From contig JAJCTO010000010.1 of the NCBI GenBank assembly GCA_046563655.1, forward strand, positions 310,001 through 374,000: 64,000 nt of DNA. The letters are read 5' to 3'. Below, piece by piece: positions 19,961-37,407 of the stretch; within the stretch, counting starts at the first letter, position 1, and each line of letters begins with the position of its first letter. Position numbers and translations under genes: made by a program. The notes beneath the pieces were generated by a model. That model made no database searches. It saw nothing but the letters and a program-made list of their open reading frames with translations, and was not told the origin of the DNA. The stretch comes from Yuukianura sp. NJ FZ-2021 (Eukaryota).

Positions 19961-20087
19961 CGTGTGCAAAGAAGGATCGTATTTTATGCGTGATTTCATC
20001 ATGCACTATAAAAAGAGGAGCGCAAACTATGTTTTGCGCATGTATATAAAGTTAGTTGTGCTTAAGTTGTAGCAAGTCATTCAAAAC

Positions 20088-21026
20088 ATGGAAGTCCTCT
20101 TGACGTATGAGGGGAGATTAAAAACGTACCAGAACGCTCAAGTCAGATGGCCGTTGAGTTTTGTTACCCCGGAAGCATGTTCGTGTGCGGGATTTTACTA
20201 CCTTGGAGTAGATGACATGGTGGGTAATTTTCAACTTTTTCAAAAAAAAAAACGTCAGGTTGTTGAATAATAATAATTTTTTGAACAGGTTGCTTGTCCA
20301 TATTGTCGAGGTGTCGTTGGGCAGTGGGTGGTTGGTGACGACCCGTTGTTGGAGCACCGTAAACACTTCCCGCGCTGTCCGTATGTTGTAGTTCTAGTAG
20401 GTCTGCTGTCCGGGGTTGGATTCGTAGTTGCTCCAGATGCAACTAGAACTGGAGCGGGCGCCACGGCTGGATTTGACGTTTCCGGAAATGCAAACACTCA
20501 AACCGGAATGCCCAGCGCGGGAAGTACCGATGTTTCCGGTTCTGCTAACACTGCCACCGACCCTAGTTCGTTGGGAATACATGGTTTCGGTGCTGGAACC
20601 GCAGGAACTCAGGCAGCCGAGCCCGAGGCCGGCATTCCTGGCTCGGCAAGAACCGACATGGCTGGGGCAACCGCGGCAGAAACCGACATAGCTGGCTCGG
20701 CAAGAACTTATGTGAACGAAATAACTACACTCGAGACGGACATACGCGGCGCGGGAGGAACCGATGTTGCCGGTGCCGGAACCCAACCCATTTTAAGAGC
20801 AGCATCCTGTGCTTTGGCATATGACGTTTATAATTTGGCGGCTGCCGACGTAAAAAGCGACAATTCGAGTAACAGTCTTACTTGTAAGATTTGTTGGGAC
20901 AAAGAAGCCTGTGATGTATTCCTACCGTGCAAACATCTGATTGCCTGTCCAACATGTTCGTTATCGTTAAAAAGTTGTGCAGTTTGCCGAGAACCTATAC
21001 TAATTAGATTGAAGGTGTTTACTTAG
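20088..21026 (+). CDS. iap: Inhibitor of apoptosis (single BIR plus C-terminal RING), 2 exons (20088-20219, 20289-21026), ~289 aa
   Basis: RLKTY..WP..AGFYYLGVDDM|VACPYC..W..DDPLLEHRKHFPRCPYV (BIR) and CKICWD..FLPCKHLIACPTC..CAVCR (IAP-type RING). TATA at ~20044 and AATAAA at 21151. Confidence 0.92.
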
Positions 21027-21259
21027 TTGTGAAATAGTGATATTCTATATTCAGTTTTCTAAGTCATCTCACAACCCAATTCATGTAGCATTGAATTGAG
21101 TTGTGGGATGACTTTTGTTGCTGTGAGTTCGAATCTTAGTTTGGTATATGAATAAAAAAAGCAATGTGTTTATGCAACGTTTGGATGACGTGTTTTTGAA
21201 TTAGTATTTAATGAGCTAAACTTCTGAGTAACTAAACATTCGTTGTCGGAGCTGAGACC

Positions 21260-24200
21260 ATGGACGGGATCATTAAATTTAAGTGCGACAATTGTGGTGA
21301 CCGTTTTGATTCACAAGATTCTTATTGGGATCACGCGTTTCAACTTCATGTTTACGACCTTCGCATACCACGTCAAGGTATTTTTGAACAAAAAAAAAAA
21401 AAGATTTGAGTTGGGCACCTTTCGAGGTTATGTTACTTTGGCTAGAGTGGGAACCTCGGGACGATCAGGTTCCGGGTCCAAGTCGTCCCAGAGTAGCAGG
21501 AAGTGACGGATCTCAAGCGAGGAATTTTGGAAGTCCAGAAGAACCAATTCTTGATGCAATTTTAGAAGGGCTGCTTGATTATGAAGGTAGTAACAAGAGA
21601 AAATGACTCAATTGCATAGTCCTGAAATACAAAAAAAAATTTTTTTTTTGTAGAAGAATTGTCAGAGACTCAGCAATCGGTCATGAATGCAGACTTGTCA
21701 AACTATCGCGAGAGATTCTGTTCACACTGCGCCATCAAGTTTGAGAACGCCGGAGAGCTGGATTACCATCGGTTCGAGTTTCATCGGGAACTCTACACGG
21801 ATCATGCGGAAGGTCAACAGTGGGGAGGATCTGAAAGTCGGCTTGAGATTCGAGAAGTCCTGAGGGCTGGACGTCGCCGAAATGGCGGTGATGGTGGCAT
21901 CGTAAGAGAATTCGAAGTCGATTTGACTGAACGACTGTTTGCAGACGTGACTGGCGTGATGCGAAGTACAGCTAACGCCCTGACAATTTTGCTCGAGGGA
22001 CTTGTTCAAGAGTTTAGGGGTATGAAATTGATTGGAACCTTGATTGCAGAGATGACTAGAAGATCAAGGGACCGGCCAGGTGAAGCCGAAGTCGAACGGT
22101 TTCCATTCAACAGTTTTCTACATGGGTGTTTTCATCAAAGTATGATTCAAACTATTCTGAGGCAAATGTTCTCGAAAATGAGGTTGTCTTTGGAATCATT
22201 CATTCACCACGGTTCGGGCTGGAAGCTGAAGCGCTTCTTGCTACTTCAAGTTAGAGTTTTTGAGTTTAGGATGGACCGAGGGTCGGCTTGGATTCCAACT
22301 CCCAAAGTCATTCGCGACAAACGGTGCATCATAAATATTCGGCACAATGACGAATTCTGCTTCAAGTACGCCGTCCTGGCAGAACTGAACCCACTTTACA
22401 AGAACCCGAATGTTGACTGGTACGCCTTTACCAATCCTAGGAATTATCAGACAAATTGTGCCGAGATTGACTGGGATTGCTTAAATTTTCCGGTGACAAT
22501 CGGACAACTTGACAAGTTCCACCACTTCAACCCACAGATTGCAGTTAATGTGTTTGGCTACGAATCACGAGACGAACTTGCTCCAAGTTTGAAAGGCAAA
22601 AAGAAGATTGACATTTTCCCTCTTTATATTTGTAGAGAGAAAAGAGCAAAAAGTGTGGATTTGTTGTTACTAATCGATGGGAACAATTCTCATTACACAC
22701 TGTTGCGTCAAAGTGATTATAATCCGACGGAGGGCTTGTCTCGATCACTCGGAAAGGGTGAACGTAATTATGAAAAGTTTGTGTGTCGATTCTGTATGTG
22801 CTTCTCAACAAGTGAACGGAATTTGCAAACTCACCAAAAGTATTGTGCGTCACTGGACCTACAACGCGTCGTGTTACCAACCCAACAAATGTACACGTCG
22901 GACTTCATTGTGCAACGGCTTCCGGTGCCATATGTCATTTATTTAGACTTTGAGGCAGTTTTAGTACCTACGGATGGGATTGGTACTCGACAAATTGGTG
23001 ATGTTTATAACGAACATATTGACTGCGGCTGGTCAGTGAGTATCATTGGACCTGACGGGTTTCTTGCGGACCGTGTTGTGACATTTTGTGGTCCGAATGC
23101 TGCACTGAAGTTGATTGACGAACTCGTATCTGCTGCAGCAAAGATATATCCGATTTTGAAAAAAGATGTCGGCCGTGACCCGCGCTGGATCGAATCTGAC
23201 TATACTAATCTCCTGTCAGCTTCAACTCACTGTATCCATTGTGGTTTAGAGTTTGTGCAAGGAGTTGACACTAAGTGCATTGACCATTGCCATATTACAT
23301 CAGCAATTCGGGGAGTGAGTTGCGGTCCGTGTAACTTGAAAGCACAAGTCTGCTCATTTATTCCAGTTGTGTGTCATGGTTTTCGGCATTATGATTCAAA
23401 ATTTATTGTGCAAGCATTACGTGCTAGTACAATTAAATCTGTTGAAGTGTTGGCGAGCAGCAGCACCGAGAAGTTTACTGCGCTTCGGTTGACAACCCAT
23501 GGAGATCATGTTCTGCGAATGATTGATTCGTTTCAGTTTATTAGTGCGAGCTTAGCAGAGCAAGTCAAAATGCTTGCCAAAGAAGGAAAAGACAAATTTG
23601 GTGTGACTTGTCACCATTTTCAACAGTACGGAAGTAAAATTGAATTACTTTTAAGAAAAGGGGTTTACCCTTACAGTTACTTTGACTCCATGGAGCGATT
23701 TGATGAAACGTGTTTGCCACCTGCCGAAAAATGGAAAAGCGATTTGACTGGAAAATCCATCAGTCCTGAAGATTTGGGAACATGCGCATACGGTTTGGCG
23801 GGAATTTGGCTGTCAAACATTGAGAGATTATCACAACTTGTACGTTTCTCTTGATGTTTGCCTCCTGGCGGATTGTTTCCAGAATATGAGAAGAAGTATG
23901 CTCGAGAGTTTCCGCCTGGATCCGGCGCACTATCTCACTCTTCCAGGAATAGCATACGACGCAGCAATGTTGGCAGGAAAAGTGGAGTACGAGTATCTGG
24001 ATGAGATTGACAAGTACATGTATTTTGAACGCGGGATTCGGGGTGGAATTTGTTCTGTCGGACTACGTTATGCAAAAGCAAATAACCCTTACTTGGGGGA
24101 TTTGTATGACCCGGCGCTTCCATTGAGTTACATTTGTTACTGGGATGCAAACGCCTTGTACGCAACTTGTTTGAGGAACTACGTTCCGTGGAAAGATTTT

Positions 24201-25511
24201 GTGTGGGAAATGTCACTGGAAAACAGAACAAGAAATTTGGATAGTGTCGTGAAGATGATCATGGATTTGGAGGATTGTGGTCCGGAGGGATTAGTTTTGG
24301 AGGTAGATTTGGATTATCCGCAAGAATTGCATGATTCTCACAATGACTACCCATTAGCAGTACAGCGAAGTGAAATAACATACGATTGGCTGTCCGACTA
24401 CACAAAAGAAGTTTTGAAGAACGTGGGAGCTACACCTGGATCTTGCAAAAAAACAAAACTTTTGGGAACATTGTGTAACAAAAGAAACTACATTGTCCAT
24501 TATCGACTTTTAAAGTTGTTTTTGGAGCTTGGACTGAAACTTGTGAAGGTTCACAGAGCCATACGGTTTACACAAGCTCCATTATTTCGTGTATACACGG
24601 ACATTTGTATAACACGTCGACGCGAAGCGACGAATCCGGTGGATAAGAACTTTTACAAGGCCATGGGAAACATTTTGGCGGGAAAAGTTTACCAAAATGT
24701 CCGGAAATATAGGCGGATCAACATTGCATTATCAAGAGAGAAGATGAGAGAATACGCCCGAAAGCCAACCGTTGAGGACGTCAAAATCATTCATGATGAG
24801 TGTGTTTTGTTTGTGATGAAAAAGTTGGCTGCTAGGCTAGACAAACCTATTTTTGTTGGACAGTGCATTTTGGATGATTCCAAATGCAGAATGTACAGTT
24901 TTTACTATAAGTGGTTAAAGCCGCGATATGGAGACAACATGAGGCTGATGTATACCGATACGGATAGCTTCTTACTTCACATAAAAACGGAAGATGTTTA
25001 TGCAGATATAGCTGAAAGTGTGAGGAGGAATGAAGGCGTTTTTGACACATCAAAGTACGACAGAGGAAATGAAAAATTTGGATATTTGTGGAGTGACCAA
25101 TTTGAAGGGGTTGGTGGTTGCTTCAAGGACGAATGTGCCAACGAAGTGATTTCGGAAGCAATAGCATTGAAGCCAAAAATGTATGCAATCAAGATGTTGA
25201 AGGACGATGGGACGCAAACTCAACTGAAGAAGGCAAAAGGAACAGTTTGCTCTGTTGTCGAGAATGAATTGGATTTTGAAGATTACAAAAAAGTTTTAGA
25301 AAACGGGCGGTTCAAGTCTTGTAGTATGAATACAATTCGAAGTTTAAATCACCGTTTATATACAACTACAATGTACAAAAAAAGTTTGTCAGCATATGAA
25401 GATAAGAGTTTTTATTTGTCTCCAATTGATTCATTAAGATTTGGTCATTATAGAATTGAATTAGAAAAGAATTTGCATCAAATTGTAGACGATTTGGAAG
25501 AAGATGAATAA
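21260..25511 (+). CDS. Protein-primed family B DNA polymerase (pPolB); exons 21260-21377, 21446-21586, 21654-25511; one +1 frameshift at 23776-23778
   Basis: Motifs YLDFEA, HGFRHYDS, RKGVYPYSY, WDANALY, YTDTDS, PKMY, plus an endonuclease VII-like CIHC..DHCH..CGPCN segment and two N-terminal C2H2 fingers. Removing one G gives PEDLEHAHTVWREFGCQTLRDYH and joins the two ORFs. Confidence 0.92.
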
Positions 25512-25569
25512 AGCCAATTAGATTAAATGTCCTTCCAGTTAGTAGTTGTTTGGGGTTTGATTTGTCAAG

Positions 25570-26229
25570 ATGGAAATTCAATGTTCATTGCAGCATCCTT
25601 TTGTCATGGTGTTGGCCGGTCCTACACAAAGTGGAAAAAGTACATTGATTAAAAAAGTTTTGGAACGCATAGACGAAGTTGTTGAGCCAAAAATCAAGCG
25701 TATAATCTACTGTTATGCCGAGGATGAGCCGGATTTTGCAAAAAGTTTAAAAGGAGTTCACAGTGGAAAAGAAATTGAAATTGATTTTCGCCAAGGTATG
25801 AATCAAATTGATGTTGACATTGGAAACAAGACGCCAACTCTTGTTGTGTTGGATGACTTTATGGAAGACCTTGGATCATCCTTGGATATTTGTAGAATGG
25901 TAACTCGGGGTTCCCATCACCGTTCACTGTCTCTTATGATTACGATTCAAAATTTTTTCTTTAAAGGATGTAGGAATTTGACTTTAAATGCAAAATATGT
26001 TGCACTATTTCGAAATCCAAGGGATAAGACTATAATAAAATATTTGGGACGACAAATGAATGGCGGAAAAGCAAATTCGACGTTAGAAGAAGCATTTGAG
26101 GATGCTACAAAAAATAAGCCAAATAGCTATTTATTTTTAGATATGTCTCAAAGTCAAAATGATGAGTTTCGAATAAGATCAAATGTATTTGCAGATCCAG
26201 AATCTTGTGTAGTATATTTGAAAAAGTAA
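25570..26229 (+). CDS. A32/FtsK-like genome packaging ATPase
   Basis: Walker A GPTQSGKS, Walker B VVLDD, plus RGSHHR, ITIQN and YLFLD. Confidence 0.93.
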   Translation: MEIQCSLQHPFVMVLAGPTQSGKSTLIKKVLERIDEVVEPKIKRIIYCYAEDEPDFAKSLKGVHSGKEIEIDFRQGMNQIDVDIGNKTPTLVVLDDFMEDLGSSLDICRMVTRGSHHRSLSLMITIQNFFFKGCRNLTLNAKYVALFRNPRDKTIIKYLGRQMNGGKANSTLEEAFEDATKNKPNSYLFLDMSQSQNDEFRIRSNVFADPESCVVYLKK

Positions 26230-26235
26230 CATACC

Positions 26236-26727
26236 TTAGTTTCGTTTCAATTTTGAAAGTCCTTCTGTGAGACAATCAAATAAATGGATTGGAATCACAA
26301 CACTAGATGCAGCATCGTAAACATTTTTAATATGTAAATGTGTGAGCGGTCCTTGGTCGTTTCCTTGTTCATTGCCAATGTAGAGCTGCCAACCATCCTC
26401 CAAATTTACTCGTGGTGGTGGATGTGGTTTAGGAAATTCTTGACGAACTTCAACTACCATTGCCAAAGATGTGACTTTGCGAGGAAGTTTGGGAATACGA
26501 ACACGTTTGCGTTGCTTCTTTTCTTGGAGTTCTCCTGTGATAAGATTTGGGTTTAGGTTAAGAAAATCTTGAATTGGAGAATCCATTTCGGATGACTTTT
26601 GTTCTGTTTTGTTGAGGTTACAGTTACAAGAAAATGTTTCACAAACAGTAATTGTAGTAGTAGAATTTTTCTTGAAACAAAAATTTGCAAATGAACGCCA
26701 GAGAGAGCAAATTTGACATGAGCTCAT
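26236..26727 (-). CDS. Hypothetical protein (163 aa)
   Basis: The ORF is packed tightly between the ATPase and the integrase; no motif confidently recognised. Confidence 0.55.
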   Translation of the reverse strand: MSSCQICSLWRSFANFCFKKNSTTTITVCETFSCNCNLNKTEQKSSEMDSPIQDFLNLNPNLITGELQEKKQRKRVRIPKLPRKVTSLAMVVEVRQEFPKPHPPPRVNLEDGWQLYIGNEQGNDQGPLTHLHIKNVYDAASSVVIPIHLFDCLTEGLSKLKRN

Positions 26728-26745
26728 GTCACGGTAAAGTTAAAC

Positions 26746-27702
26746 TCAAGACTGAGGAATGCGTTGAAGTTCTTCGTTGTAAAATATTCCAAATATGTGT
26801 TCACCTTTGCCATCTTTTAACTTGTAGGTTACGGGTTGCGTATTACAAACTTCAACAATTTGAAAAATTTCTTTTGTCCAGCTTTGGGCATATCCCTTTT
26901 CAAAAATCATTTTAGTTTTACTAATTATTACGGAGTCTCCGACGTTGAAGTTAGGACGTTTGTGTTTTGCTTGGCTTTGTTTTGGTGAGTATCCGTACAA
27001 GTTTAGAAATACTTGAGTTTTTGTGTCTTCATTGACTTGATTTGGCGTACATTTGATGGAACGATGATATGTGTTGTTGTATGAATTTAAAATACTTTGC
27101 AAAACATCTAAAAATTTATTAGTCTGATTGTGTGTCATATATCTTGCCAACCTTCTCATTAATGTTTGGTTAAATCTTTCAACTATTACTGCCTTCAGTT
27201 CGGATCTAGTACTAAAGTATGAAACAGAATGTTGTTTTAAAAGTTGTTTAACATTTTGATTTAAAAACTCTTTCCCTTCATCAAATTGAATTGACTTGGG
27301 AGGGCCTCTTTTCTTAAAAATTTTTTGCAACGCGTTTGCTACTTGACTTCCAGTTTTCTTTTTTAAAGGAATGACGTCAGCGACTTTAGAAAAACCGTCA
27401 ATACAAGTTAACAAGAAGTTATGATTCGTATTCGACTCGGAATACTTTGAAATGTCGATTAGGTCAATTATATACTGATATCTAATAGACGGTATAAAAA
27501 CTTTTCGTCTATTGTATCGTTTTCTAGTAGGTTTGTGAAGAGTATAAGCTGGAAGTTGTTCTAATGCTTTTAGTACACTTCTTTTGCTGAATCCATTTTT
27601 CTTTTGAGCTTGAAAAGTTCCTTCTAATCCAGAAAATGCAAAACTTGAACGAGGATTAACGTATTCTTTACGAATTTTCTCTGTCAACTGTTTCTGTGCC
27701 AT
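26746..27702 (-). CDS. Retroviral-like DDE integrase (intronless)
   Basis: IIDLID, CIDGFSK, QFDEGKEF, VERFNQTL, FEKGY..WTKEIF and FYNEELQ. Confidence 0.95.
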   Translation of the reverse strand: MAQKQLTEKIRKEYVNPRSSFAFSGLEGTFQAQKKNGFSKRSVLKALEQLPAYTLHKPTRKRYNRRKVFIPSIRYQYIIDLIDISKYSESNTNHNFLLTCIDGFSKVADVIPLKKKTGSQVANALQKIFKKRGPPKSIQFDEGKEFLNQNVKQLLKQHSVSYFSTRSELKAVIVERFNQTLMRRLARYMTHNQTNKFLDVLQSILNSYNNTYHRSIKCTPNQVNEDTKTQVFLNLYGYSPKQSQAKHKRPNFNVGDSVIISKTKMIFEKGYAQSWTKEIFQIVEVCNTQPVTYKLKDGKGEHIFGIFYNEELQRIPQS

Positions 27703-27849
27703 TGTACAGATTAAGTCTGGCTACAAGAATTGGAGATGCAACAGTATATATCGTGGAGGTATATAAACGAGGTTAATCATTTGAAGTCTCAACATGAAAC
27801 TGTTCACACCACGTACAAAACAAGGCCGTGTTGTTGTTGTTGGATCATC

Positions 27850-28185
27850 ATGTCTACAACTGTGAAAGAAAATTCTGATTTTTTGAGATATCTAATCAAG
27901 TGTTCACCCCAACAAAGAAAAGCGTTAATTAAATATGCGAGTAGTGGTGAAGTCAAAAGTATTTGTGAATGTGTTTTGAATATATATAAAAAAAATGTTG
28001 GACTAAAAAAGTCGACAATTAAAAAATTACGTCCATTCAAAAGAGCAATACTTTCAATTGTCAAGAGAAGAGGTTCATCGTTGGTCAAAAAGAAAAAACT
28101 TTTGTCTCAAAAGGGTGGTGCAATAATTCCTTTAATTTTAGGATCCATGATTCCAAGCGTTTTATCAGCAATTTTACAAAAATGA
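27850..28185 (+). CDS. Basic virion-associated protein with a C-terminal amphipathic peptide after QKGG
   Basis: SICECVLNI..LLSQKGG|AIIPLILGSMIPSVLSAIL, a protein type commonly seen in Polintons. Start taken at the ATG at 27850. Confidence 0.7.
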   Translation: MSTTVKENSDFLRYLIKCSPQQRKALIKYASSGEVKSICECVLNIYKKNVGLKKSTIKKLRPFKRAILSIVKRRGSSLVKKKKLLSQKGGAIIPLILGSMIPSVLSAILQK

Positions 28186-29195: not shown

Positions 29196-29273
29196 AGTTT
29201 TTTCTTCTCTCATAAAATCCCTACTTCATGTGTGCAGGGATGCGCGCGCGCGCGGTCCCTGCTTTATCATGGT

Positions 29274-29509
29274 GGGTTTTAAACCCAACAATGCTACGCG
29301 GGGTGTTAGCCCCTGCTGACCACGTGGATTTGAGCCCTGCGTGCAACTTGGGTTTAAGCCCTGCGTGCAACTTGAGTTTAAGCCCTGCGTGCAACTTGGG
29401 TTTAAGCCCAGCGTGCAACTTGGGTTTAAGCCCTGCGTGCAACTTGGGTTTAAGCCCTGCGTACAACATGGGCTTTACACCTGCGTGCAACCCGGGGTTT
29501 AAACCCCCG
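29274..29509. repeat. 24-bp minisatellite with a quasi-palindromic core
   Basis: About 7 copies of GCCCTGCGTGCAACTTGGGTTTAA, bounded by GGGTTTTAAACCC and GGGGTTTAAACCCC. Confidence 0.9.
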
Positions 29510-29621
29510 CTTCCTCCCCCCACCCAAACTCTAGTTTATTTAATTCACAAGTAAACGTTGTATTTTATCTTAGTGTGATTTTATATTTCATCAAATAAAC
29601 ACGTGTCATCACAAAAAAAAA

Positions 29622-30422
29622 ATGGCGCATCAACAACGTGATACCTCATTTTTTGTAACATTACAATCAAACGCATGTATGGATTTATTTCCAGATAATA
29701 AAATTTCAAATTTCAAAAACCGTCTTTCTACAACAATCTCTCTCCCAGCTGGGCAATGGGAAGTTGCGCTTACAGAAATCTCATATACATTTGGAAATGC
29801 AATAATACATTCTGGTGACGTGTTATTTTCAACTTTCAAAAAAAGTGAAGACGAGTCTGTGTCGTCGTTACAAACATATATCTGCAGCAGAAACATTACA
29901 AGTGAACAGGAACTGTTACAAGAACTGTCATCTGCTCTAAACGGAGCTACTTTTGAAATTAGAAACCACATTTTCTATTATCAATTTCCATTGCTACATG
30001 AAGGAATTATAGTTTCACAAAAATTGGTTGATATTCTTGGTTTACCTAAAGCAGATCTTTCTGTAAGAAGTAATGCAAAAGCTACAGAAAAACTTTTTCT
30101 ACAAAAACCTTTTCAACTCAAAGGTCAAGGAACAATGCCCGTCTTTTTTAATACTGGAAATACAAAAATGTTTGTATACTGCAACCTTATTAAACCACAA
30201 TTTGTTGGAGATGTACTAGTACAGTGTCTGCGGGTTGTCAATTATGATGGACACATACGACGTCAAGTTGTTAATGAATTTTCACATCCATATTTTTTGT
30301 ACCTCGCCGTAAGTGAGTTTGATACTGTCAAAATCTATTTATTAAATGAAGTAGGAGAAAATCTGGCATTACAATTTGGAAACGTGACGGCGACGCTTCG
30401 CTTCCGTCAACGAAAATATTAA
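29622..30422 (+). CDS. Minor capsid protein (penton-like, single jelly-roll)
   Basis: FFVTLQSNACMDLFPDNKISNF..WEVALTEISY and MFVYCNLIKPQFVGDVLVQCLRVV..TLRFR. Confidence 0.92.
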   Translation: MAHQQRDTSFFVTLQSNACMDLFPDNKISNFKNRLSTTISLPAGQWEVALTEISYTFGNAIIHSGDVLFSTFKKSEDESVSSLQTYICSRNITSEQELLQELSSALNGATFEIRNHIFYYQFPLLHEGIIVSQKLVDILGLPKADLSVRSNAKATEKLFLQKPFQLKGQGTMPVFFNTGNTKMFVYCNLIKPQFVGDVLVQCLRVVNYDGHIRRQVVNEFSHPYFLYLAVSEFDTVKIYLLNEVGENLALQFGNVTATLRFRQRKY

Positions 30423-30434
30423 GAGCAAAAAAAA

Positions 30435-30881
30435 ATGAGAGCCTTAGTTCCATACAATTGCGCTAGAGATGGCGCTGAAAATTTCTTCAAATTTTCAACA
30501 CATCTCAATCCTTCTTTTCATCAAATTGGTTATGGATCCCCCATATTTTTTAGTGGAGTACGAAGACAAAGGGGAGCCGGGTTGGGAGCTGTGCTAGGTA
30601 CATTTGCAAGGAGGCTAGTACCATTTTTAAAAAAATATATCGCTCCGCATGCATTGACGGCAGCGCGTGCAGTGGCATCTGATCTAATTGAACGTAAACG
30701 TCCATTTTCTGAATCACTTCGTTCTCACGGAATAGATGCTCTTAAAGAAGCAGGGCGGGACTTGCTTAATCAGACGGGATCTGGACGGCGAATCACAAAG
30801 AAGCATAGAAAACGAAAGAAAAAGAAAAAGAAAAAAGTTGCCAAAAAAGCAAAAGCTTCCAAACTCAGATACCTCTTTTAA
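30435..30881 (+). CDS. Putative core/DNA-condensing protein
   Basis: QIGYG, QRGAGLGAVLG and QTGSG motifs with a very basic C-terminal tail; located between mCP and MCP. Confidence 0.8.
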   Translation: MRALVPYNCARDGAENFFKFSTHLNPSFHQIGYGSPIFFSGVRRQRGAGLGAVLGTFARRLVPFLKKYIAPHALTAARAVASDLIERKRPFSESLRSHGIDALKEAGRDLLNQTGSGRRITKKHRKRKKKKKKKVAKKAKASKLRYLF

Positions 30882-30891
30882 CAAAAAAAAA

Positions 30892-32238
30892 ATGCCAAAA
30901 GTTAAATCTTCCAGAGTTTCTCCATCATCTTCTTCTTCTTCTTTACCTTACACATTTGTTAGATCAGAAACACAACTCTTTGAAGAACCAATCTTTGATG
31001 TTAGTCTGGCATCAACTTCAGCTACGGAATTTCATTCAATCAACTCACTTTCAGACAATCAAGCTCCTCTAGAATTTTTTGTACAAGGAAACCAAACTGA
31101 ACTAATCGACTTGTCGGAAACAAAACTTTATTTAAAAGTCAAAATTGTGAAGCAGAATGGTACAGATTTGGACGACACCTCAATTGTTGCACCAGTCAAC
31201 AATTTCCTTCACTCTTTATTTCTACAGTGTTCAATATATCTCAACGAAGTTTTAATTACTCCTGCAAGTTTGCAATATGCCTACAGGGCATACTTGGAAA
31301 CTTTACTTGGATATGGAAAAGAATACAAACGCTCCCAAAGTCAATGCTCACTTTTCTACAAGGACAAGGATCCTAAATGTACAGATGAAACAAAAGAGGA
31401 TGGATTTAAACAAAGATACGCATTTGCTGTAAAAAGCAAAACAATTGAAATGGTCGGGCGTCCATTCACCGACCTTTGTGTTCAAAACAAATTTCTTGTT
31501 CCTTCAATTGACTTGCGGATTTCATTTCTAAGATCCACTCCAGAATTTTGTCTTGTTGCCAAAACAACTGGCAACTATCAAGTTCAAATACAAGATGCAC
31601 GTCTAATTGTACAACGACATCAACTCCTTCCATCCTTACTAACTTCAATTCTCCAAACTTGGGAGCATGGGAAACCAGCAACTTATCCCATGAAACGAGT
31701 TGAAATTAAAACATATACCCTATCTCCTGGTACAGTCACCAACGTCAACGAAAATCTCATTTCTGGTGTCATATGTGATCGACTACTTATTGGACTTTTA
31801 CCGTCAGAAAACTACATTGGATCTATAACTACAAATCCATTTGCATTTGAGCACTTTGACTTGAGCTATATAAATGTCAGCATTAATGGTGACTCTGGAA
31901 CTGCACTTGGGACACATGTTGACTTCAGCCAAGATCAATATGTTCAACTCTACCATAATCTGTTTAGTAGTCTCGGAATTGCCAACGACGACGTTGGATT
32001 AGATTTGAACCGGGAGGAATTCAAATCTCACCCACTAATGCTATATAATCTCAGACATTCAAAAGAAGGGTTTCCTACTCCGAAGTACGGCAACGTCAAA
32101 ATTGATCTCAAATTTAAAACGGCACTCAAAAGCTCTGTCACCGTCCTCGTCTATGCCGAGTTTCAATCCGTCTTACACATTGATTCTACAAAATCAGTAT
32201 ACTTTAGAGACTACAGTCTAGCCAGCCTTCAACAATGA
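30892..32238 (+). CDS. Major capsid protein (double jelly-roll), ~448 aa
   Basis: SETQLF, PLEFFV, IDLSETKLYLKVKI, PVNNFLHSLF, YAYRAYLETLL, NPFAFEHF and VLVYAEF. The start was moved to the ATG at 30892, after the upstream stop. Confidence 0.93.
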   Translation: MPKVKSSRVSPSSSSSSLPYTFVRSETQLFEEPIFDVSLASTSATEFHSINSLSDNQAPLEFFVQGNQTELIDLSETKLYLKVKIVKQNGTDLDDTSIVAPVNNFLHSLFLQCSIYLNEVLITPASLQYAYRAYLETLLGYGKEYKRSQSQCSLFYKDKDPKCTDETKEDGFKQRYAFAVKSKTIEMVGRPFTDLCVQNKFLVPSIDLRISFLRSTPEFCLVAKTTGNYQVQIQDARLIVQRHQLLPSLLTSILQTWEHGKPATYPMKRVEIKTYTLSPGTVTNVNENLISGVICDRLLIGLLPSENYIGSITTNPFAFEHFDLSYINVSINGDSGTALGTHVDFSQDQYVQLYHNLFSSLGIANDDVGLDLNREEFKSHPLMLYNLRHSKEGFPTPKYGNVKIDLKFKTALKSSVTVLVYAEFQSVLHIDSTKSVYFRDYSLASLQQ

Positions 32239-32759
32239 ATACACAACAAATTTATTCTTATCTTGCCAAAATTGTCGGCAAATATCCTTCAACTTTTGAT
32301 GTAATTCCAATAGATCATTTGAATAACATGGAAATTTTTACCTATCCACTTCTCCTGGTCGTCAACAGTGCTCCTTCTCATCATCCAGGACAACATTGGC
32401 TTGCCCTATTTAGGGAAAACTCCAAATCTCCACTAACATTTATAGATTCTTATGGACTTGGTGTAGAAATGTATCATGTAGCTCTGCAAAACTTTGCGAA
32501 ACGTTTAAACACTTCAATAATTGAAAATACGAGACAACTTCAAAGTATAAATTCTACAGTTTGCGGTGAGTATGCCATTTACTTTTTGTATAAACTGTTG
32601 CATTCCTGCTGTTTAATGTCAATCTACTGCAACTTTACCATCAATACTATAAGAAATGATAGACGCGTAAAACGTTTTGTCAGAAAAATGCTTCCGCAAA
32701 TAATAAAAACTATTCCCTACTATGATAATATTCAATGTTGTACTCCATTTACGAAATAA
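32235..32759 (+). CDS. Adenain-like maturation cysteine protease
   Basis: VNS..HPGQHWLA, FIDSYG and QLQSINSTVCGEYAIYFL, giving a His-Asp-Cys triad with the oxyanion Gln. Confidence 0.93.
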   Translation: MNTQQIYSYLAKIVGKYPSTFDVIPIDHLNNMEIFTYPLLLVVNSAPSHHPGQHWLALFRENSKSPLTFIDSYGLGVEMYHVALQNFAKRLNTSIIENTRQLQSINSTVCGEYAIYFLYKLLHSCCLMSIYCNFTINTIRNDRRVKRFVRKMLPQIIKTIPYYDNIQCCTPFTK

Positions 32760-32855
32760 AAAAAAAACATCAAATAAACTCTCTTTTTTATGCTGCACAA
32801 TACTCACAATGGAGCTTTTATTTTTCTTTCAAATTATTTCTTAAAATAATTTCTT

Positions 32856-33242
32856 CTAATCGTGAGGCATATCTTCAATTTCCTCCTTGGCAGATGCAAC
32901 ATCTCTCAAGCAGCTTTGAAGCGTATCCGCGGCTTTGTCCAAGTCACACCCGACGGCACGGCAATAAATGTTCGTAAGTTTCCGCATGACATATGGGATG
33001 TTCCGGCCCTCAAAGTTGACCACCTTTCCCTTGCGTTTAAAGTACACCCAAGTGTATGGTCGTCCTTGAAAAATCGAGTCCCGATGGAAAACCTCCAACT
33101 TTTTGTCATCCTCCACATAATTCAACACCTCGCGCTCAACTCCGTCATCTACGACCGCTTGATCTCCTTAAACACATACACAAAAAAATAATTTTCCCCT
33201 TCTTTTCTAGTGTAACAAAAAAAAATTACCTCTTTTGTCCAT
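32856..33242 (-). CDS. Small spliced hypothetical protein (intron 33167-33229)
   Basis: G|GTAATT..TTTAAG|GA joins MDKR to GDQAVVDDGVEREVLNYVEDD.. in frame. The start could instead be the upstream ATG near 33317. Confidence 0.55.
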
Positions 33243-33431
33243 TGCTACAAGTAAGAGCTTCCTTCTCCAAATGCTTCTCAGAAACTGAATGATCTGACAT
33301 GCAACTAATGCCATCATTTTATACCACCACAAAACGTACAGAGAACGACATTTTTATTCAACCAAATAGAACGACAAAAAAAAAACGCAAACATTTTAGT
33401 CATAGTCATTAGTAATACAAATTACTTAAGA

Positions 33432-35357
33432 CTACCAACTTGCATATTCATCAGCAATCTTTTCCAACTCCCTCACAAGCAAGTCCTTTGCTTCCGTATC
33501 CTGACTAAACCGAAATGTAAAACTCGTTCCTGCCAAAATCTGCCCTCCGCGGGTAACTGTTGAAATCCTTCTTCTTGGTTCCATCGCCACAAGCACTCCT
33601 AAAGCATCAGCTGCCGCCAAAATTTTGTCCCAGCATTCTTTGTCCTTCTCGTAGCTAAACCTTGTTTGTTGACAGACACCAGACAATGAAATCTCTTGAA
33701 GGGTTGGAATTCTTGGAACAATTTCCAAGAACACCACATGGTCAACCCCGCAAGAGTAATCAATATGACCGCCAAGACGGTCCAAATGCAGTTTTGTCAA
33801 ATTTGGTAGACATGTAATTGACCTTACAAGTTCGCCACGTAACACGTTTGCGCCAACCAGCGTAAGCTTCTGGATGGACTTGGGATAATTTTGCTGACAA
33901 ACAGTTTTGTGAAAGCCTTGAAAACGTCCATGTCCAAAGAAAAATGGGCTGTGGCTGTGAGGAATAAACTCCAGCCGCAATTCCTTCAAATTTTTCAGCT
34001 CATCCAATCCCTCAATCTGATACGGAGACCTCGCGTCCATCACCACGTTGCTCACATCCAAAATTCGCAGACTTTCCTTGCTGTTCTTGATTATCGAGGC
34101 CATCCGTTTCATTGAAACTCCGTCAAGCTCCACCTTCAAGCATTCAAAAGCATTTGGCAGGTCCACCAACTTCCACCAAATGCTAAAAAACGAAGACGGG
34201 AATGCGTAGTGCGGAAGACATCTTATCTCCAAATCCCGCAACTTTGGTAACAGCACGTTCGCCACAGGGCCGAACTCTCCAAAGTCAAAATTTGCCCTCA
34301 TGCATGTAAGGCTTAAAACTTCCAACTTCCCTTGATGTCTTCTGATGAATTCGAAGAAATTATGAACTGTTTCCGGCTTGAATTTGTGACAAAGATGGAA
34401 CTCGGATAGCTGCTCCAGGACAAACTCCGGTTTTGAGCACAAAATTTCAAACAACCCTGGTAACGCGTGTCTTCCAACATTACTTGCGGAAAGGCAAGTG
34501 TCAATCTTGAGTCTAGTCAAGTACTGAAAATGATCCACCATTTGTGACGGGGTAAATTGCGCACAATTAATTTTTTTTATGCCACCAACGTGAAAAAAGT
34601 TCATCTTCGGAACAAAGTAGTAGGTGCGAATTGCGTTCCGTAGACCGCTCATAGAACAAGTTCCAGTGAATGTTACCTCTTGGACCAAGTTTCGAAACTT
34701 GAGTACAGGCAGCACTCCTTCGCGGAAGTTTTTCAAGACCAGATGATTAACTTTGGCCTCTTTCATATGCGGGGGAACCCAGTTGTTGTAGCACACAACC
34801 TTCCATAATGCTAACCTACACAAAAAACAATCCAGATGAAAAAACTTAAAAAATCACCGCAAGTCCACTTTGTGTGTATTTGGCGAACCTGTCAACCCGT
34901 ATTCTCCACTCCCTGGACACAAGTCGCATTGCATTCAAGTCATTATTTTTCAAGTATGACAGCACCAAGGCCATCATCTAAAAAATAAAAATTCATTTGT
35001 TTCACTTCATCCCTTTGACATCTGAACATATAGATTTGTATACACATATACAAATCATATATATATATATATACATATATAAAAATCATATATATATATA
35101 AATCATATTTAGACTGCATATGAAATTGAACCTGATGGGGCAATGTGAGACTTTTTTTTTTGTTTTTTTTTTGTTACTTATGTGTTAACAACATCGTACG
35201 ATTCAAAATAACTTGCGACAACGTAGTCCAGTAGCTAGATCAAATTCTCCGTTCTCAAAAGGGCCAAGTCTCACATTTCCCCAGATAGGAAAGTATTTTA
35301 ACACCCTGGCCAATTGCTCACCTCAGCTGGAAGGCTTTCAAGCGTTGGGTCTTGCAT
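33432..35357 (-). CDS. F-box/LRR protein, 3 exons (35357-35322, 34977-34889, 34815-33432), ~502 aa
   Basis: The spliced N-terminus MQDPTLESLPAE|MMALVLSYLKNNDLNAMRLVSREWR is a canonical F-box. Downstream LxxLxL repeats (LPKLRDLEI, SLRILDVS, NLKELRLE, NLTKLHLD). TATA at ~35445. Confidence 0.85.
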
Positions 35358-35832
35358 TGCCCCAAACCAGTTTAAATTTGATTTTTGCTTTGTTTTTTCT
35401 GGTAAATGTTCCGCAATGTTGCAAATGGCAAAGTAGACATCTAATTATATACCCCCAGCCCAAAGAGAAACGTAAAATCTACGCCGCGGAATGCCCCACA
35501 GGGATGACATCACCGAATGAACGTCCAAGGTCAGACAACATGAGATGTTGAAATGGGTACAAAGATCATTTTGTGGTAATAATTGTATCCTACAATCTAC
35601 TGCACGAACGAAAGTCCAAGGTCATACGTCACATCCTACATTCCTGTTGTAATTTCTTTTTAACATGTGTAACTGCTTTATATCGCAATCAAAAATTAAT
35701 TTCTCAATTTCACAATTGTTCTCAATCGCAAAAAAAAATTTTTTTTCACAAATTTTCACCATTCAAAAAAATTTTTTTTATTCAGTTGCCAAAAAACATA
35801 CTTTTTTTTTGAAAACGAATACAAATTTTTTT

Positions 35833-37407
35833 TTAAAAGCGTTTCATCCTTGGTCGCAAGGTGCGCTGCGTGGCAACCACATTTGGCGAAATCCCAACAC
35901 ATTTGCGCGGTCGGCCTCTTCGGCGCCTGAGAGGATTCGGTCCTGCAACATTTGCTCCCTCCGCTTCGGCCTTGGTCACTCCCTCTCGATCCGCTTCGGC
36001 CTTGGCCACACTCGCCCCGGCTACTGTCCCAGACGATCCGGGCATGGGTGCCCTCTCCCCGACTCCTGCCGCTCCTTTCGCATCGGCCTTAGGCACTCCC
36101 GCACCAGCCGCTCCGTCGTCAGGCATTGCCACTTCCGCCGCTCTGTCGTATGCTGATGACTCCCTTTTGATAGCAACCGCTGCCAACTCACATCTTAAAC
36201 GGTTTAGTTCATCCCCGGCTTCCTGCTTGCAGCGTTCAGCCGAAGAAGCCCTCGTTTCCGCAAAAAATGCAGTGTCTCGTAGCCTACCAACTTGTTCCTG
36301 TAAATCAAAAATGCGCTGTCCGTAAGATGAGCATGATTCGTCCATCTGACGCTGCATATTCTCAATCCTCGCAGCAGATGCATACTGCTCGTGAACCAGG
36401 CGCATCCTTTCGGCATGAACCATCGCTTCAGACGCAATTAGTTTTTCATTTAACTCTTGATTTCGTTTTTCCGACGTTGACAGGCGTTCGTTCATGCCAT
36501 TCATCAAAGAAACATTTTTCGCCAAAGTTGTTTCCCTGCAAAACAAAACCCCAATTATCAAACAAGTAGAAATCGAATTAACAAAATATTAATGAGAGTG
36601 TGTTACACTCACCACGTTTGCGTCTTTGAGTTCAACTCCGTTTCTTTTTTATTCAGCTCCAACTGGAGCTGAACTATGACCCTAGTCTTGTGAGCCGAAC
36701 CACATTCGACCTCAGTAGCTCTACGGGCTCTGAAAACAAAGAAAAACAAAGATTAATTTTTTTTCTTCACAACAATAAAAAATCAAATTATTTTTTAAAA
36801 ATTTTGAAAAAAAAAATTCACTTACAACACACTTTGCATTGGCAACGAGGCCACCCTCCCCTGAATGTCATCTAGAACAGTTCGAATTTCGCTCATCAAA
36901 GCACTAAAATGAAAAAAAAAACTTTTGAACTTTTATTTTATGATATTTTTGCGAAAACAAAAAAAAACGGTTACCTGTTGTCGGCGTTTTCATTTGCCAC
37001 CTGCGCCCCATCATGGGCGGAGAAGAAGATTCTCCGCCCATCGACTTGCTCTCCCATGGTTTTCACTCCACAATAACACACCGGACATGGTGTCCTACGA
37101 AAACAAAAAAAAAGAAAAAAAACCGATTCTACACACAACTAGAAAAAACTTGAAAAAAAATCTTACACCACTTCTTCCTTGTGGCCAAGGCATCCAGGAT
37201 TTTTTGATGCCGCCCAGTTAATCATACAAACCCTAAAAAATTACAGAAAACAACAATTAATCAATTTCAAAAACAAAACTAGGTCAAATTATTATTTTTT
37301 TCTTACCAATGCAACGCATGATTGCATTCGGTGAGCACGACGATCGCCTTCGGGTCCGAAGGGGGATGGTCCCCAAGCAACTCACGACAAATGGAACAAA
37401 TTATCAT
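35833..37407 (-). CDS. RING-H2 plus coiled-coil plus AT-hook protein, 6 exons, ~394 aa
   Basis: Exons 37407-37307, 37232-37167, 37094-36975, 36903-36826, 36729-36613 and 36535-35833 splice in frame. The product has CSIC..CNHALHWVCMINW..CPVC, a heptad-rich middle and RRRRGRPRK. TATAAA at ~37490. Confidence 0.85.

What the first reader, a model, noticed from the sequence alone, without database searches (positions are those of the whole stretch)
20088..37407. Polinton arms carry a spliced three-gene ubiquitin-ligase toolkit
Seen: the left arm has a BIR-RING IAP; the right arm has an F-box/LRR and a RING-H2/coiled-coil/AT-hook gene. All three are intact after splicing, have TATA boxes and point inward, whereas ATPase, integrase, capsid and protease genes are intronless. 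Known: large insect DNA viruses use IAPs and RING/coiled-coil proteins (baculovirus IAP3, IE2, PE38, CG30), and poxviruses use F-box-like adaptors. Inference: an 18-kb virus-like element with an early host-takeover module, probably captured from host DNA because introns are retained.
Basis: partly seen in the sequence, partly recalled or inferred. Interest (0 to 1): 0.85.

Follow-up and report, generated by a model that had tools for sequence, protein, structure and literature searches.

The report
Polinton carrying spliced ubiquitin-ligase accessory genes
An 18-kb virus-like transposon (Polinton/Maverick) sitting between two satellite arrays carries, in its two end regions, four intron-containing genes, among them an apoptosis inhibitor, an F-box protein and a RING-finger protein, which probably let the element tamper with the host cell's protein-tagging and cell-death machinery.

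Summary
Window 19659-37687 is an 18,029-bp Polinton/Maverick with AGTAGT-type ends and weak terminal inverted repeats. It lies between a 510-bp and a 206-bp satellite.

All three genes lie inside those ends:
- a one-BIR plus RING IAP, 2 exons;
- an F-box plus LRR-like protein, 3 exons;
- a RING-H2 / long-helix / AT-hook protein, 6 exons.

Contigs of one public run join the RING-H2 exons exactly at three of my five predicted introns. All four accessory genes have a TATA box and a poly(A) signal; none of nine core gene starts has a TATA box. Accessory genes have GC3 of 0.44-0.51, against 0.23-0.30 for virion genes. The family is multi-copy in two coded organisms.

A distant metagenomic relative keeps the F-box gene next to the small gene, but without one intron. 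That argues against recent host capture.

Function as a host ubiquitin/apoptosis-modulating module is inferred, not shown. IAP homologues in adintoviruses, accessory end regions and intron-bearing Maverick cargo are already published. The F-box/RING-H2 combination appears new.

The parts
19659..37687 (.). Whole Polinton/Maverick element, 18,029 bp
   Evidence: TIR-like match and AGTAGT / GCTACT ends. Contigs of the runs diverge at 19662 and 37688 (table 7). Satellites lie outside.
19659..19817 (+). Left terminal inverted repeat, followed to about 19950 by roughly 105-nt subterminal direct repeats
   Evidence: 71% match to the reverse complement of 37531-37687, E 3e-8. Variant contigs skip 207 nt at 19696-19904.
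37531..37687 (-). Right terminal inverted repeat
20007..20049 (+). Two TATA boxes, 81 and 45 nt upstream of the IAP start codon
20088..20219 (+). IAP exon 1 (first half of the BIR domain)
   Evidence: Pfam BIR profile positions 1-35; gene model
20289..21026 (+). IAP exon 2 (second half of BIR, low-complexity linker, C3HC4 RING). Poly(A) signal at 21151.
   Evidence: BIR profile positions 37-69, 34.4 bits; zf-C3HC4_3 5e-11. cIAP1 3t6p_A 3e-15. Zinc-ligand patterns. Poly(A) signal.
21260..25511 (+). pPolB. Probable exons 21260-21377 (C2H2 finger), 21446-21586 and 21654 onward. Endonuclease VII-like insert. The reading frame changes between about 23770 and 23790.
   Evidence: Motifs. Endonuclease_7, 27 bits. 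5' exon model. Frame change. Contigs of X1-X3 differ from the window at 23776 (table 4).
25570..26229 (+). P-loop packaging-type ATPase
   Evidence: AAA-type Pfam hits, all below their cut-offs; Adeno_IVa2 E 0.007
26746..27702 (-). rve integrase
   Evidence: PF00665, 2.1e-11
29622..30422 (+). Minor capsid (penton) candidate
   Evidence: Position, and by-eye resemblance to ORFs of the second Polinton remnant. No family hit.
30892..32238 (+). Major capsid protein candidate
   Evidence: 442 homologues, best 63% identical; named ones are 'F54H12.2-like'
32235..32759 (+). Adenain-like protease
   Evidence: Peptidase_C5, 21.4 bits against a cut-off of 21.3
32856..33242 (-). Fourth accessory gene, 107 aa. 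Exons 33242-33230 and 33166-32856. TATA at 33323, poly(A) signal at 32822. Unknown family.
   Evidence: Model. TATA and poly(A). Homologue beside the F-box homologue in L001. No Pfam hit; Atlas uninformative.
33432..35357 (-). F-box/LRR-like gene, 502 aa. Exons 35357-35322, 34977-34889 and 34815-33432. TATA at 35451, poly(A) signal at 33358.
   Evidence: Model. F-box 23 bits. Fold and Foldseek. Relatives P0121, P0123 and L001.
35833..37407 (-). RING-H2 / long-helix / AT-hook gene, 394 aa. Exons 37407-37307, 37232-37167, 37094-36975, 36903-36826, 36729-36613 and 36535-35833. TATA at 37496, poly(A) signal at 35782.
   Evidence: Model. Joined contigs of X4 remove introns 1, 2 and 5 exactly (tables 5 and 8). 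RING and AT-hook patterns. Helix over residues 2-135 of exon 6, pLDDT 85-96.

Best explanation
This is an integrated, nearly intact copy of a multi-copy Polinton/Maverick (adintovirus-like) element. It has a core of replication, integration and virion genes. Its two terminal accessory regions hold four inward-pointing genes built like host RNA polymerase II genes, each with a TATA box, short AT-rich GT-AG introns and a poly(A) signal.

Three of the four encode parts of ubiquitin-ligase systems:
- a one-BIR plus RING IAP, which probably ubiquitinates or sequesters pro-death factors;
- an F-box protein with an LRR-like body, which probably plugs into host Skp1-Cullin1 as a substrate receptor;
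- a RING-H2 protein with a long helix (probably for oligomerising) and a C-terminal AT-hook (probably to bring E3 activity to AT-rich DNA or chromatin).

I think it most likely that the element uses them as accessory genes, transcribed by the host machinery independently of the virion genes, to keep the cell alive and to remodel host proteins when the element is active.

Shown: the anatomy, the domains, the location inside the element ends, splicing of the RING-H2 message, and the multi-copy state.
Inferred: E3 activity, targets, timing, and benefit to the element.
For: INSIDE THE ELEMENT. The motif is as published for vertebrate Mavericks (PMC8097293, passages seen). Contigs break at 19662 and 37688.

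DOMAINS.
- The BIR halves on the two exons are complementary, and there is an IAP-type RING.
- The F-box is above the Pfam cut-off.
- For the LRR-like body, 40 Foldseek matches have E<=0.001. All 36 listed rows are LRR or LRR-containing proteins, with TIR1, COI1, D3 and FBXL3 among them.
- The RING-H2 pattern forms only after splicing.
- A 135-residue helix is predicted.

GENE MODELS. Nine GT-AG introns in the four accessory genes keep all frames open. Intron GC is 0.16-0.36 against exon GC of 0.45-0.52.

EXPRESSION. Two X4 contigs join 36534/36612, 37093/37166 and 37231/37306, which are exactly introns 5, 2 and 1. X4 covers only 5 of 30 bins of the element, so it behaves as RNA.

SEPARATE REGULATORY CLASS. 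TATA boxes stand before 4 of 4 accessory starts and 0 of 9 core starts, against a background of 7.4% of windows. GC3 is 0.44-0.51 for the IAP, F-box and RING-H2 genes and 0.23-0.30 for the ATPase, integrase, penton, capsid and protease genes.

NOT DECAYING.
- 590, 559 and 195 contigs of X1, X2 and X3 lie on the element at 90-100% identity.
- 12 of 44 indel rows are shown. The 5 that lie in the arms are all outside my exons: 2 in an intron, 1 in a 5' UTR, 2 intergenic.
- The shown core indels are in-frame or compensating, apart from the pPolB break site.
- In one IAP variant contig the BIR domain has 2 synonymous and 0 non-synonymous changes.

OLD ASSOCIATION. L001 keeps the F-box homologue followed by the small-gene homologue.

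PRECEDENT. Adintovirus IAP and Bcl2 homologues are reported in PMC8502044, section 3.2 (passage seen).
Against: - No activity, partner or target was tested.
- No joined contigs were seen for the IAP, F-box or small genes, nor for RING-H2 introns 3 and 4.
- X4 is labelled 'DNA?' by the tool. In principle its joined contigs could come from a processed retrocopy or from a non-element paralogue about 98% identical.
- The F-box body model is poor (pLDDT 53, TM 0.3-0.43), and Pfam LRR hits are below their cut-offs.
- The selection evidence rests on the few rows the tool printed: 40 of 889 substitutions and 12 of 44 indels.
- In the IAP linker, non-synonymous changes outnumber synonymous ones, about 11 to 6. 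A variant joint at 20365/20886 with 15 letters between may not keep the frame.
- This copy has a broken pPolB frame, weak TIRs (71%) and no target-site duplication, so this particular copy may be inactive.
Confidence: 0.6

Rival explanations
1. Passive cargo. The arm genes are host-derived passengers picked up by the element and copied along with it. They have no role in the element's own life cycle. This resembles the cargo regions of nematode Mavericks, which are thought to be taken up from hosts and ferried between species.
For: - The genes have introns, TATA and poly(A) signals and higher GC3 than the virion genes.
- Widen et al. (bioRxiv 10.1101/2022.07.12.499685, passages seen) describe 2-5 kb cargo regions next to a TIR, with high GC and genes with introns.
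- The IAP linker changes freely between copies.
Against: - Three of four cargo genes belong to one functional theme (E3 ligase parts), which random capture does not predict.
- No close cellular relative was found for the F-box body or the IAP.
- The F-box plus small-gene pair is kept in a relative only 24-47% identical.
- The shown arm indels avoid exons.
Confidence: 0.2
2. Host co-option. The provirus copies are largely dead as viruses, and the host now uses one or more of the arm genes, for instance the transcribed RING-H2 gene, for its own purposes.
For: - This copy has a broken pPolB frame and lies in satellite DNA.
- Joined contigs in X4 were seen only for the RING-H2 gene.
Against: - The family is multi-copy, with many contigs at 99% or more, and its core genes are otherwise open. 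That fits recent activity.
- The pPolB break is not shared by the contigs of X1 and X2, nor by part of those of X3.
- Co-option normally fixes one locus, not many copies.
Confidence: 0.1
3. Selfish or killing function. As with the toxin genes carried by nematode Mavericks, one or more arm genes act as a drive, toxin-antidote or anti-competitor system rather than as a host-takeover set. An example would be an F-box protein degrading a host or rival-element factor to the detriment of non-carriers.
For: Maverick cargo includes a toxin of a toxin-antidote pair in C. briggsae (passages seen). The small 107-aa gene beside the F-box gene has no known family.
Against: No similarity to the WASP protease or KRMA kinase cargo families was seen in any Pfam scan. 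IAP and RING E3 genes are typical of virus anti-death and regulatory sets.
Confidence: 0.05
4. The arm genes are ordinary host genes that merely flank a shorter Polinton, and are not part of it.
For: TIR identity is only 71% and there is no 6-bp target-site duplication.
Against: - The inverted match with AGTAGT ends lies outside the genes.
- Contigs of four runs break at 19662, and contigs of two runs break at 37688, not at the inner borders.
- The arms are multi-copy like the core, with variants at 90-99% identity.
- Different satellites begin directly outside the ends.
Confidence: 0.03

Closest known systems
Adintoviruses / animal Polintons with accessory genes (Starrett et al. 2021, PMC8502044; main-text passages seen, supplementary figures not visible)
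   Same: - Core gene set of PolB, integrase, adenain-like protease, capsid genes and ATPase.
- Accessory genes upstream of PolB.
[quoted passage not shown]
   Different: - Here the accessory genes are spliced.
- They include an F-box/LRR-like and a RING-H2/helix/AT-hook gene. The words F-box, RING and ubiquitin do not occur in that paper's main text or held supplement text.
Vertebrate Mavericks (Barreat and Katzourakis 2021, PMC8097293; passages seen)
   Same: - Two accessory regions flank the core modules.
- Size is about 17 kb.
- The (AGT)2 ... (ACT)2 end motif is matched here by AGTAGT ... GCTACT.
   Different: - Those intact elements are reported as intronless and have 6-bp target duplications.
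- Here at least nine introns are predicted in accessory genes and two in pPolB, and no duplication was found.
Nematode Maverick cargo regions (Widen et al., bioRxiv 10.1101/2022.07.12.499685; passages seen)
   Same: A region of a few kb next to a TIR has higher GC and intron-containing genes, beside intronless core genes.
   Different: - The cargo there is WASP proteases and KRMA kinases with ubiquitin-like domains, on one side only, and those elements carry a fusogen.
- Here there are E3-ligase-type genes on both sides, and no fusogen was recognised.
IAP, RING/coiled-coil and F-box genes of large insect and other DNA viruses: baculovirus IAPs, IE2, PE38, CG30, LEF-7; poxvirus ankyrin/F-box-like proteins (recalled from general knowledge; no call)
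   Same: The functional logic is the same: a virus-encoded BIR-RING inhibitor of cell death, RING plus coiled-coil regulators, and F-box adaptors that borrow the host SCF.
   Different: - No sequence relationship to those viral genes was tested.
- The carrier here is an 18-kb integrating element, not a genome of 100 kb or more.
- The IAP has one BIR rather than two.
Cellular cIAP1/cIAP2/XIAP
   Same: Best solved-structure matches. BIR resembles BIR3 of cIAP1, and the RING gives 3e-15 to 3t6p_A and 4e-11 to 3eb5_A. All zinc ligands are present.
   Different: There is a single BIR and no CARD or UBA domain. A 160-residue low-complexity linker varies between copies.
F-box/LRR proteins (FBXL class; TIR1, COI1, D3, FBXL3; 'F-box only protein 39-like' Atlas cluster)
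   Same: An N-terminal F-box is followed by an alternating strand/helix body. The top Foldseek matches are F-box LRR proteins, and the Atlas feature score is 0.92.
   Different: Sequence is essentially orphan, with 2 real relatives among 1.84 billion representatives. The model is of low confidence and no Pfam LRR hit is above its cut-off.

Membership tests
Polinton/Maverick | Protein-primed family B DNA polymerase | tested here: met
   Met by motif reading only. LDFEA, YVSLDV, DANALY, YTDTDS and KMY stand in the expected order over 21683-25511. Pfam, PHROGs and PDB sequence searches gave no polymerase hit. The frame is broken near 23.78 kb.
Polinton/Maverick | Retrovirus-like (rve) integrase | tested here: met
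   PF00665, 44.4 bits against a cut-off of 32.6, E 2.1e-11
Polinton/Maverick | Adenain-like cysteine protease | tested here: met
   Peptidase_C5, 21.4 bits against a cut-off of 21.3, E 2.3e-4. The match is marginal.
Polinton/Maverick | FtsK/A32-type packaging ATPase | tested here: inconclusive
   A P-loop is present, with AAA-family hits below their cut-offs. Adeno_IVa2 scores 15.7 bits against a cut-off of 21.
Polinton/Maverick | Major and minor jelly-roll capsid proteins | tested here: inconclusive
   442 homologues of the 448-aa ORF were found, and the named ones are 'F54H12.2-like'. There was no family hit and no fold test.
Polinton/Maverick | Terminal inverted repeats with an AG(T)... end motif | tested here: met
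   Inverted match of 100-160 nt at 71% identity, E 3e-8, with ends AGTAGT / GCTACT
Polinton/Maverick | 6-bp target-site duplication | tested here: not met
   The flanks are GGCGGT on the left and GAAACT on the right. The two flanks belong to different repeats.
IAP (BIR-RING) | BIR domain with C-x2-C-x16-H-x6-C zinc ligands | tested here: met
   The Pfam BIR halves score 17.2 and 34.4 bits on the two exons, at profile positions 1-35 and 37-69. The pattern is found at residues 47-74.
IAP (BIR-RING) | C-terminal C3HC4 RING of IAP type | tested here: met
   zf-C3HC4_3, 42.9 bits against a cut-off of 27. cIAP1 and cIAP2 RING matches.
IAP (BIR-RING) | Binding of caspases or IAP antagonists; inhibition of cell death | not testable with these tools
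   Needs binding and cell-death assays.
F-box protein (SCF substrate receptor) | F-box motif | tested here: met
   PF00646, 23 bits against a cut-off of 20.5, on exon 2 alone at profile positions 10-35. Exon 1 supplies the LPxE start of the motif.
F-box protein (SCF substrate receptor) | Leucine-rich-repeat substrate-binding body (FBXL class) | tested here: inconclusive
   Pfam LRR hits have E 0.02-0.16, below their cut-offs. The AF2 model has pLDDT 53 and alternating strand/helix. Foldseek matches are all LRR proteins, but TM-scores are 0.2-0.43.
F-box protein (SCF substrate receptor) | Binding to Skp1 | not tested
   No host Skp1 sequence was at hand and no complex job was run.
   The RING consensus is matched at residues 4-62 of the spliced product, spanning exons 1-3. 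The junctions of introns 1 and 2 are seen in X4 contigs.
   Only single exons could be scanned. Exon 1 gives RING families at E 0.003-0.065, below their cut-offs, and exon 3 gives none. The PDB search of exon 1 found 0.
   The spliced protein could not be given to the search tools, so no comparison with TRAIP was made.
   A single helix over 135 residues with pLDDT 85-96, though self-association was not tested. The RRRRGRPRK motif lies at residue 364.

The most novel reading that the evidence does not exclude
A lineage of animal Polintons/adintoviruses encodes its own multi-part E3-ligase programme: an IAP, an SCF adaptor, a chromatin-directed RING-H2 and a small partner protein. These genes form a separate, host-promoter-driven, spliced 'early' class, distinct from TATA-less virion genes that share an A-run leader. 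That would make these 18-kb elements the smallest DNA viruses known to combine several ubiquitin-system hijackers with temporal gene classes. The F-box/small-gene pair would be an old, lineage-defining module rather than recent host loot.
Probability: 0.3. Interest if true: 0.7.

Novelty: new member of a known kind. Interest (0 to 1): 0.5.

Why it matters
Whether Polintons/Mavericks still behave as viruses in animals is debated. Their accessory genes are the least understood part of them.

This copy gives a concrete, testable set: four host-style genes, three of which point to ubiquitin and cell-death control, with direct evidence that one is transcribed and spliced as predicted. If the genes act as proposed, they would show that mid-size integrating elements use the same host-manipulation logic as baculoviruses and poxviruses. 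They would also offer handles, in the promoter classes and E3 targets, for finding when and where such elements are active.

The element also bears on how IAP genes become dispersed by mobile DNA. A 2026 survey of metazoan IAPs (PMC13159474, passages seen) raises that question without naming Polintons.

Tried and rejected
UNAVAILABLE TOOLS.
- No whole genome is held for the window.

RUNS.
- No RNA holder was listed.
- Parts without cover: X3 is nearly blank over the IAP bins and blank over 34750-35355. X4 is blank over 25 of 30 bins. No conclusion was drawn from these blanks.

BLANK OR UNINFORMATIVE SEARCHES.
- The search for homologous proteins found 0 hits for the F-box body and 0 for IAP exon 2.
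- Viral-contig scans with the capsid protein, the F-box body and the pPolB C-half found no relative.
- The search for related loci with alignment A1 failed because the alignment was too little conserved. The scan was then run with P0121 alone.
- PDB sequence searches found 0 for the F-box body, RING-H2 exon 1 and the pPolB C-half.
- Pfam and PHROGs found no polymerase or capsid family.
- The Atlas result for the small gene was uninformative, with recognition 1624 and bacterial hypothetical proteins as neighbours.

LITERATURE.
- Searches were 'polinton' with 'inhibitor of apoptosis' (3 papers, none relevant by passages or listing); 'polinton' with 'IAP' (19 papers, of which only the adintovirus paper was relevant); polinton, ubiquitin ligase and F-box (one paper with all three terms, on a giant virus); Maverick/Polinton, cargo and F-box (no paper with F-box plus Polinton cargo).
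- Kapitonov and Jurka 2006 is not held.
- The held supplement text of PMC8502044 has no IAP, RING or F-box words. Its supplementary figures, which are said to show the IAP homologues, could not be seen.

NOT DONE OR NOT FOUND.
- No target-site duplication was found.
- An X1 joint at 21383/21469 does not match my pPolB intron 1, so it is taken as a DNA variant, not splicing.
- No complex prediction was run.
- TRAIP-likeness could not be tested.


Full report
WHAT IS THERE

Window 19659-37687 is one 18,029-bp Polinton/Maverick.

Core genes:
- An rve integrase lies at 26746-27702 on the minus strand (Pfam 2.1e-11).
- An adenain-like protease lies at 32235-32759 (Peptidase_C5, 21.4 bits against a cut-off of 21.3).
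- A P-loop ATPase lies at 25570-26229.
- A long polymerase reading lies at 21683-25511. Pfam, PHROGs and the PDB sequence search do not recognise it.
- It nevertheless carries the family-B motifs in order: LDFEA, YVSLDV, DANALY, YTDTDS, KMY.
- The 448-aa ORF at 30892-32238 has 442 homologues. The best is 63% identical, and the named ones are 'F54H12.2-like' proteins of arthropods, an echinoderm and a cnidarian at about 35%. I take it as the major capsid protein.

Element ends:
- They are set by an inverted match of 19659-19817 with 37687-37531 (71% identical, E 3e-8).
- The match begins AGTAGT on the left and ends GCTACT on the right. This is close to the (AGT)2 ... (ACT)2 end motif reported for vertebrate Mavericks (PMC8097293, passages seen).
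- Contigs of public runs that follow the flanks break away at 19662 (four runs) and at 37688 (two runs) (table 7).

Surroundings:
- A 510-bp satellite lies outside on the left, with 15 copies from 11781.
- A 206/409-bp satellite of at least 26 kb lies on the right, at 37688-63991.
- The six bases on either side differ (GGCGGT and GAAACT), so no target-site duplication is seen.

THE THREE GENES OF THE FINDING

IAP (plus strand):
- It starts at 20088 and has one 69-nt intron inside the BIR domain.
- Exon 1 matches Pfam BIR positions 1-35 and exon 2 matches positions 37-69. The halves fit like two pieces of one domain.
- The C-terminal RING scores 42.9 bits, and the best solved relatives are cIAP1 and cIAP2 (3e-15 and 4e-11).
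- All zinc ligands of the BIR and the RING are present.

F-box gene (minus strand, 35357-33432):
- It has three exons and encodes 502 aa.
- Exon 2 alone passes the Pfam F-box cut-off (23 bits against 20.5). Exon 1 contributes the LPxE beginning of the motif.
- The 460-aa body has no convincing Pfam LRR hit.
- A three-sequence AlphaFold model is poor (pLDDT 53) but shows a regular strand/helix alternation.
- Foldseek finds 40 matches at E<=0.001. All 36 listed rows are LRR or LRR-containing proteins, led by the F-box LRR receptors TIR1, COI1, D3 and FBXL3, at low TM-scores of 0.2-0.43.
- The Atlas places it nearest an arthropod 'F-box only protein 39-like' cluster with a weak score.

RING-H2 gene (minus strand, 37407-35833):
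- It has six exons and five GT-AG introns of 71-96 nt, and encodes 394 aa.
- The C3H2C3 RING pattern spans exons 1-3, so it exists only in the spliced product. An RGRP AT-hook lies at residue 364.
- The first 135 residues of exon 6 are predicted as one helix with pLDDT 85-96, followed by a disordered tail.

- A fourth spliced gene of 107 aa lies between the protease and the F-box gene (33242-32856, minus strand).
- pPolB very probably begins at 21260 with a C2H2-finger exon, followed by two introns of 68 and 67 nt. Introns are therefore not confined to the arm genes.
- The pPolB reading frame changes between about 23770 and 23790 in this copy. At 23776 the contigs of X1, X2 and part of X3 differ from the window (table 4). 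The break looks private to this copy or to its assembly.

EVIDENCE THAT THE GENES ARE REAL AND USED

Gene structure:
- Nine introns in the four arm genes all keep their frames open.
- The introns are sharply AT-rich: GC 0.16-0.36 against 0.45-0.52 in exons.

Splicing:
- Two contigs of run X4 lie on the RING-H2 gene with exactly introns 1, 2 and 5 removed. The joints are 37231/37306, 37093/37166 and 36534/36612, with GT..AG ends on the minus strand (tables 5 and 8).
- X4 comes from the same sample as the DNA runs X1 and X2.
- X4 is labelled only 'DNA?', but it covers 5 of 30 bins of an element that X1 and X2 cover throughout at high depth. I read it as RNA.
- A processed retrocopy cannot be excluded.
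- No joined contigs were seen for the other genes.

Promoters and codon usage:
- All four arm genes have a TATAWAW box 45-94 nt before the start codon. None of nine core gene starts has one within 150 nt. Only 106 of 1432 windows of 150 nt in the element contain the motif.
- All four have AATAAA or ATTAAA 34-125 nt after the stop codon.
- GC3 is 0.44-0.51 for the IAP, F-box and RING-H2 genes. It is 0.23-0.30 for the ATPase, integrase, penton, capsid and protease genes, with pPolB at about 0.4.
- The arm genes thus form a separate regulatory and compositional class.

SISTER COPIES
- At 90% identity or more, 590 contigs of X1 lie on the element (165 at 99% or more, 205 at 95-99%, 220 at 90-95%). 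So do 559 of X2 and 195 of X3.
- X3 has a different organism label and comes from a different study. Its contigs cover the F-box body with 8 differences in 822 nt and 1 in 622 nt.
- Of the 12 indel rows printed (out of 44), five lie in the arms, and none touches a predicted exon. Two are in RING-H2 intron 1, one is in its 5' UTR, and two are intergenic.
- The printed core indels are in-frame or compensate each other within a few bases, apart from the pPolB break site.
- In one variant IAP contig the BIR domain has 2 synonymous and 0 non-synonymous changes. The linker has about 11 non-synonymous and 6 synonymous changes.
- A further variant appears to lack most of the linker (joint 20365/20886). 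Whether it keeps the frame cannot be told.
- These counts are small and were chosen by the tool, so they are suggestive only.

ORIGIN OF THE ARM GENES
- The F-box body has no hit in the word-based search of 5.8 billion clusters.
- It has three hits in the full HMMER search of 1.84 billion representatives, two of them real: P0121 at 33% and P0123 at 47%. IAP exon 2 has no hit at E<=0.001.
- The contig behind P0121 (L001, 2163 bp) encodes a collinear F-box/LRR homologue in three frames, with frame breaks.
- In L001 the reading runs from the F-box into the body without an intron where the window has intron 2.
- In L001 that gene is followed on the same strand by a homologue of the small gene (42% over 26 residues).
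- The F-box/small-gene pair is therefore much older than this copy, and intron content has changed within the lineage.
- This does not fit a recent capture betrayed by 'retained' introns. An ancient cellular origin remains likely.

COMPARISON WITH WHAT IS KNOWN
- Accessory regions at both ends of Mavericks are described in PMC8097293.
- Nematode Mavericks carry high-GC, intron-containing cargo next to a TIR (bioRxiv 10.1101/2022.07.12.499685).
- The adintovirus paper states that IAP and Bcl2 homologues occur in these elements (PMC8502044, section 3.2). Its supplementary figures could not be seen.
- I found no paper in the held library that links Polintons with F-box or RING ubiquitin-ligase genes.
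- The resemblance to baculovirus IAP, IE2, PE38, CG30 and LEF-7 and to poxvirus F-box-like adaptors is functional logic recalled from general knowledge. It is not a tested relationship.

VERDICT

The most likely reading is an accessory, host-transcribed gene set aimed at the host ubiquitin and cell-death systems, with confidence about 0.6. Passive cargo is the main rival.

It is a new member of a known kind, an animal Polinton with accessory genes, with a cargo combination that appears unreported. Interest is moderate.

Noticed in passing
window 11781-19550: Satellite with a unit of about 510 bp, 15 copies, mostly 95-100% alike, with one 978-bp spacing (an interruption near 15140-15470). It ends about 110 bp before the Polinton's left end.
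   Followed up: partly
window 37688-63991: At least 26 kb of a 206-bp (409-bp higher-order) satellite at 84% match, starting at the very base after the Polinton's right end. The element thus sits between two different satellites.
   Followed up: partly
window 5750-11750: Remnant of a second, diverged Polinton. It has integrase pieces at 6608-7617 (minus strand, 31-32% identical), a capsid piece at 10658-11742 (plus strand, 23-26%), and two penton-like ORFs (5754-6461 minus, 8875-9627 plus). It has no homologue of the four arm genes.
   Followed up: partly
window 3-4399, minus strand: Gag-pol reading frames of an LTR retrotransposon (protease, reverse transcriptase, RNase H, integrase by eye) running off the window start.
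   Followed up: no
window 29609-29621, 30423-30434, 30880-30891: The penton, ORF148 and capsid genes each start directly after a run of 9-10 A (CAAAAAAAAA-ATG), and ORF337 has a shorter one. This may be a shared leader or late-promoter feature of the virion genes, which lack TATA boxes.
   Followed up: partly
window 23190-23340 (pPolB residues 503-552 of ORF 21683-23854): The polymerase carries an Endonuclease VII / His-Me finger-like insert between its Exo I and Exo II motifs (Pfam 27 bits, PHROGs 2.6e-6). This recalls the HNH insert reported for the pPolB2 class of oomycete and nematode Polintons (PMC10748475, passages seen). Class membership was not tested.
   Followed up: partly
window 29325-29506: A 24-bp tandem repeat, 7.5 copies, inside the element between ORF337 and the penton gene. 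In one frame it reads as repeated LSPACN.
   Followed up: no
window 19700-19950: Subterminal direct repeats of about 105 nt just inside the left end, each containing the AAGAATGCAAGGT core that also occurs once inside the right end. Variant contigs skip 207 nt here, so the repeat number varies between copies.
   Followed up: partly
L001 1-2163: Metagenome contig with a diverged F-box/LRR gene in three overlapping frames (2-673, 573-752, 718-1407), followed by the start of a small-gene homologue. It is probably a decayed copy or an error-rich assembly. Whether it lies in a Polinton cannot be told from 2.2 kb.
   Followed up: partly
window 26236-26727, minus strand: A 163-aa ORF directly downstream of the integrase on the same strand, with no family hit. 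Variant copies carry three small indels here that cancel out (net zero), which suggests it is coding.
   Followed up: no
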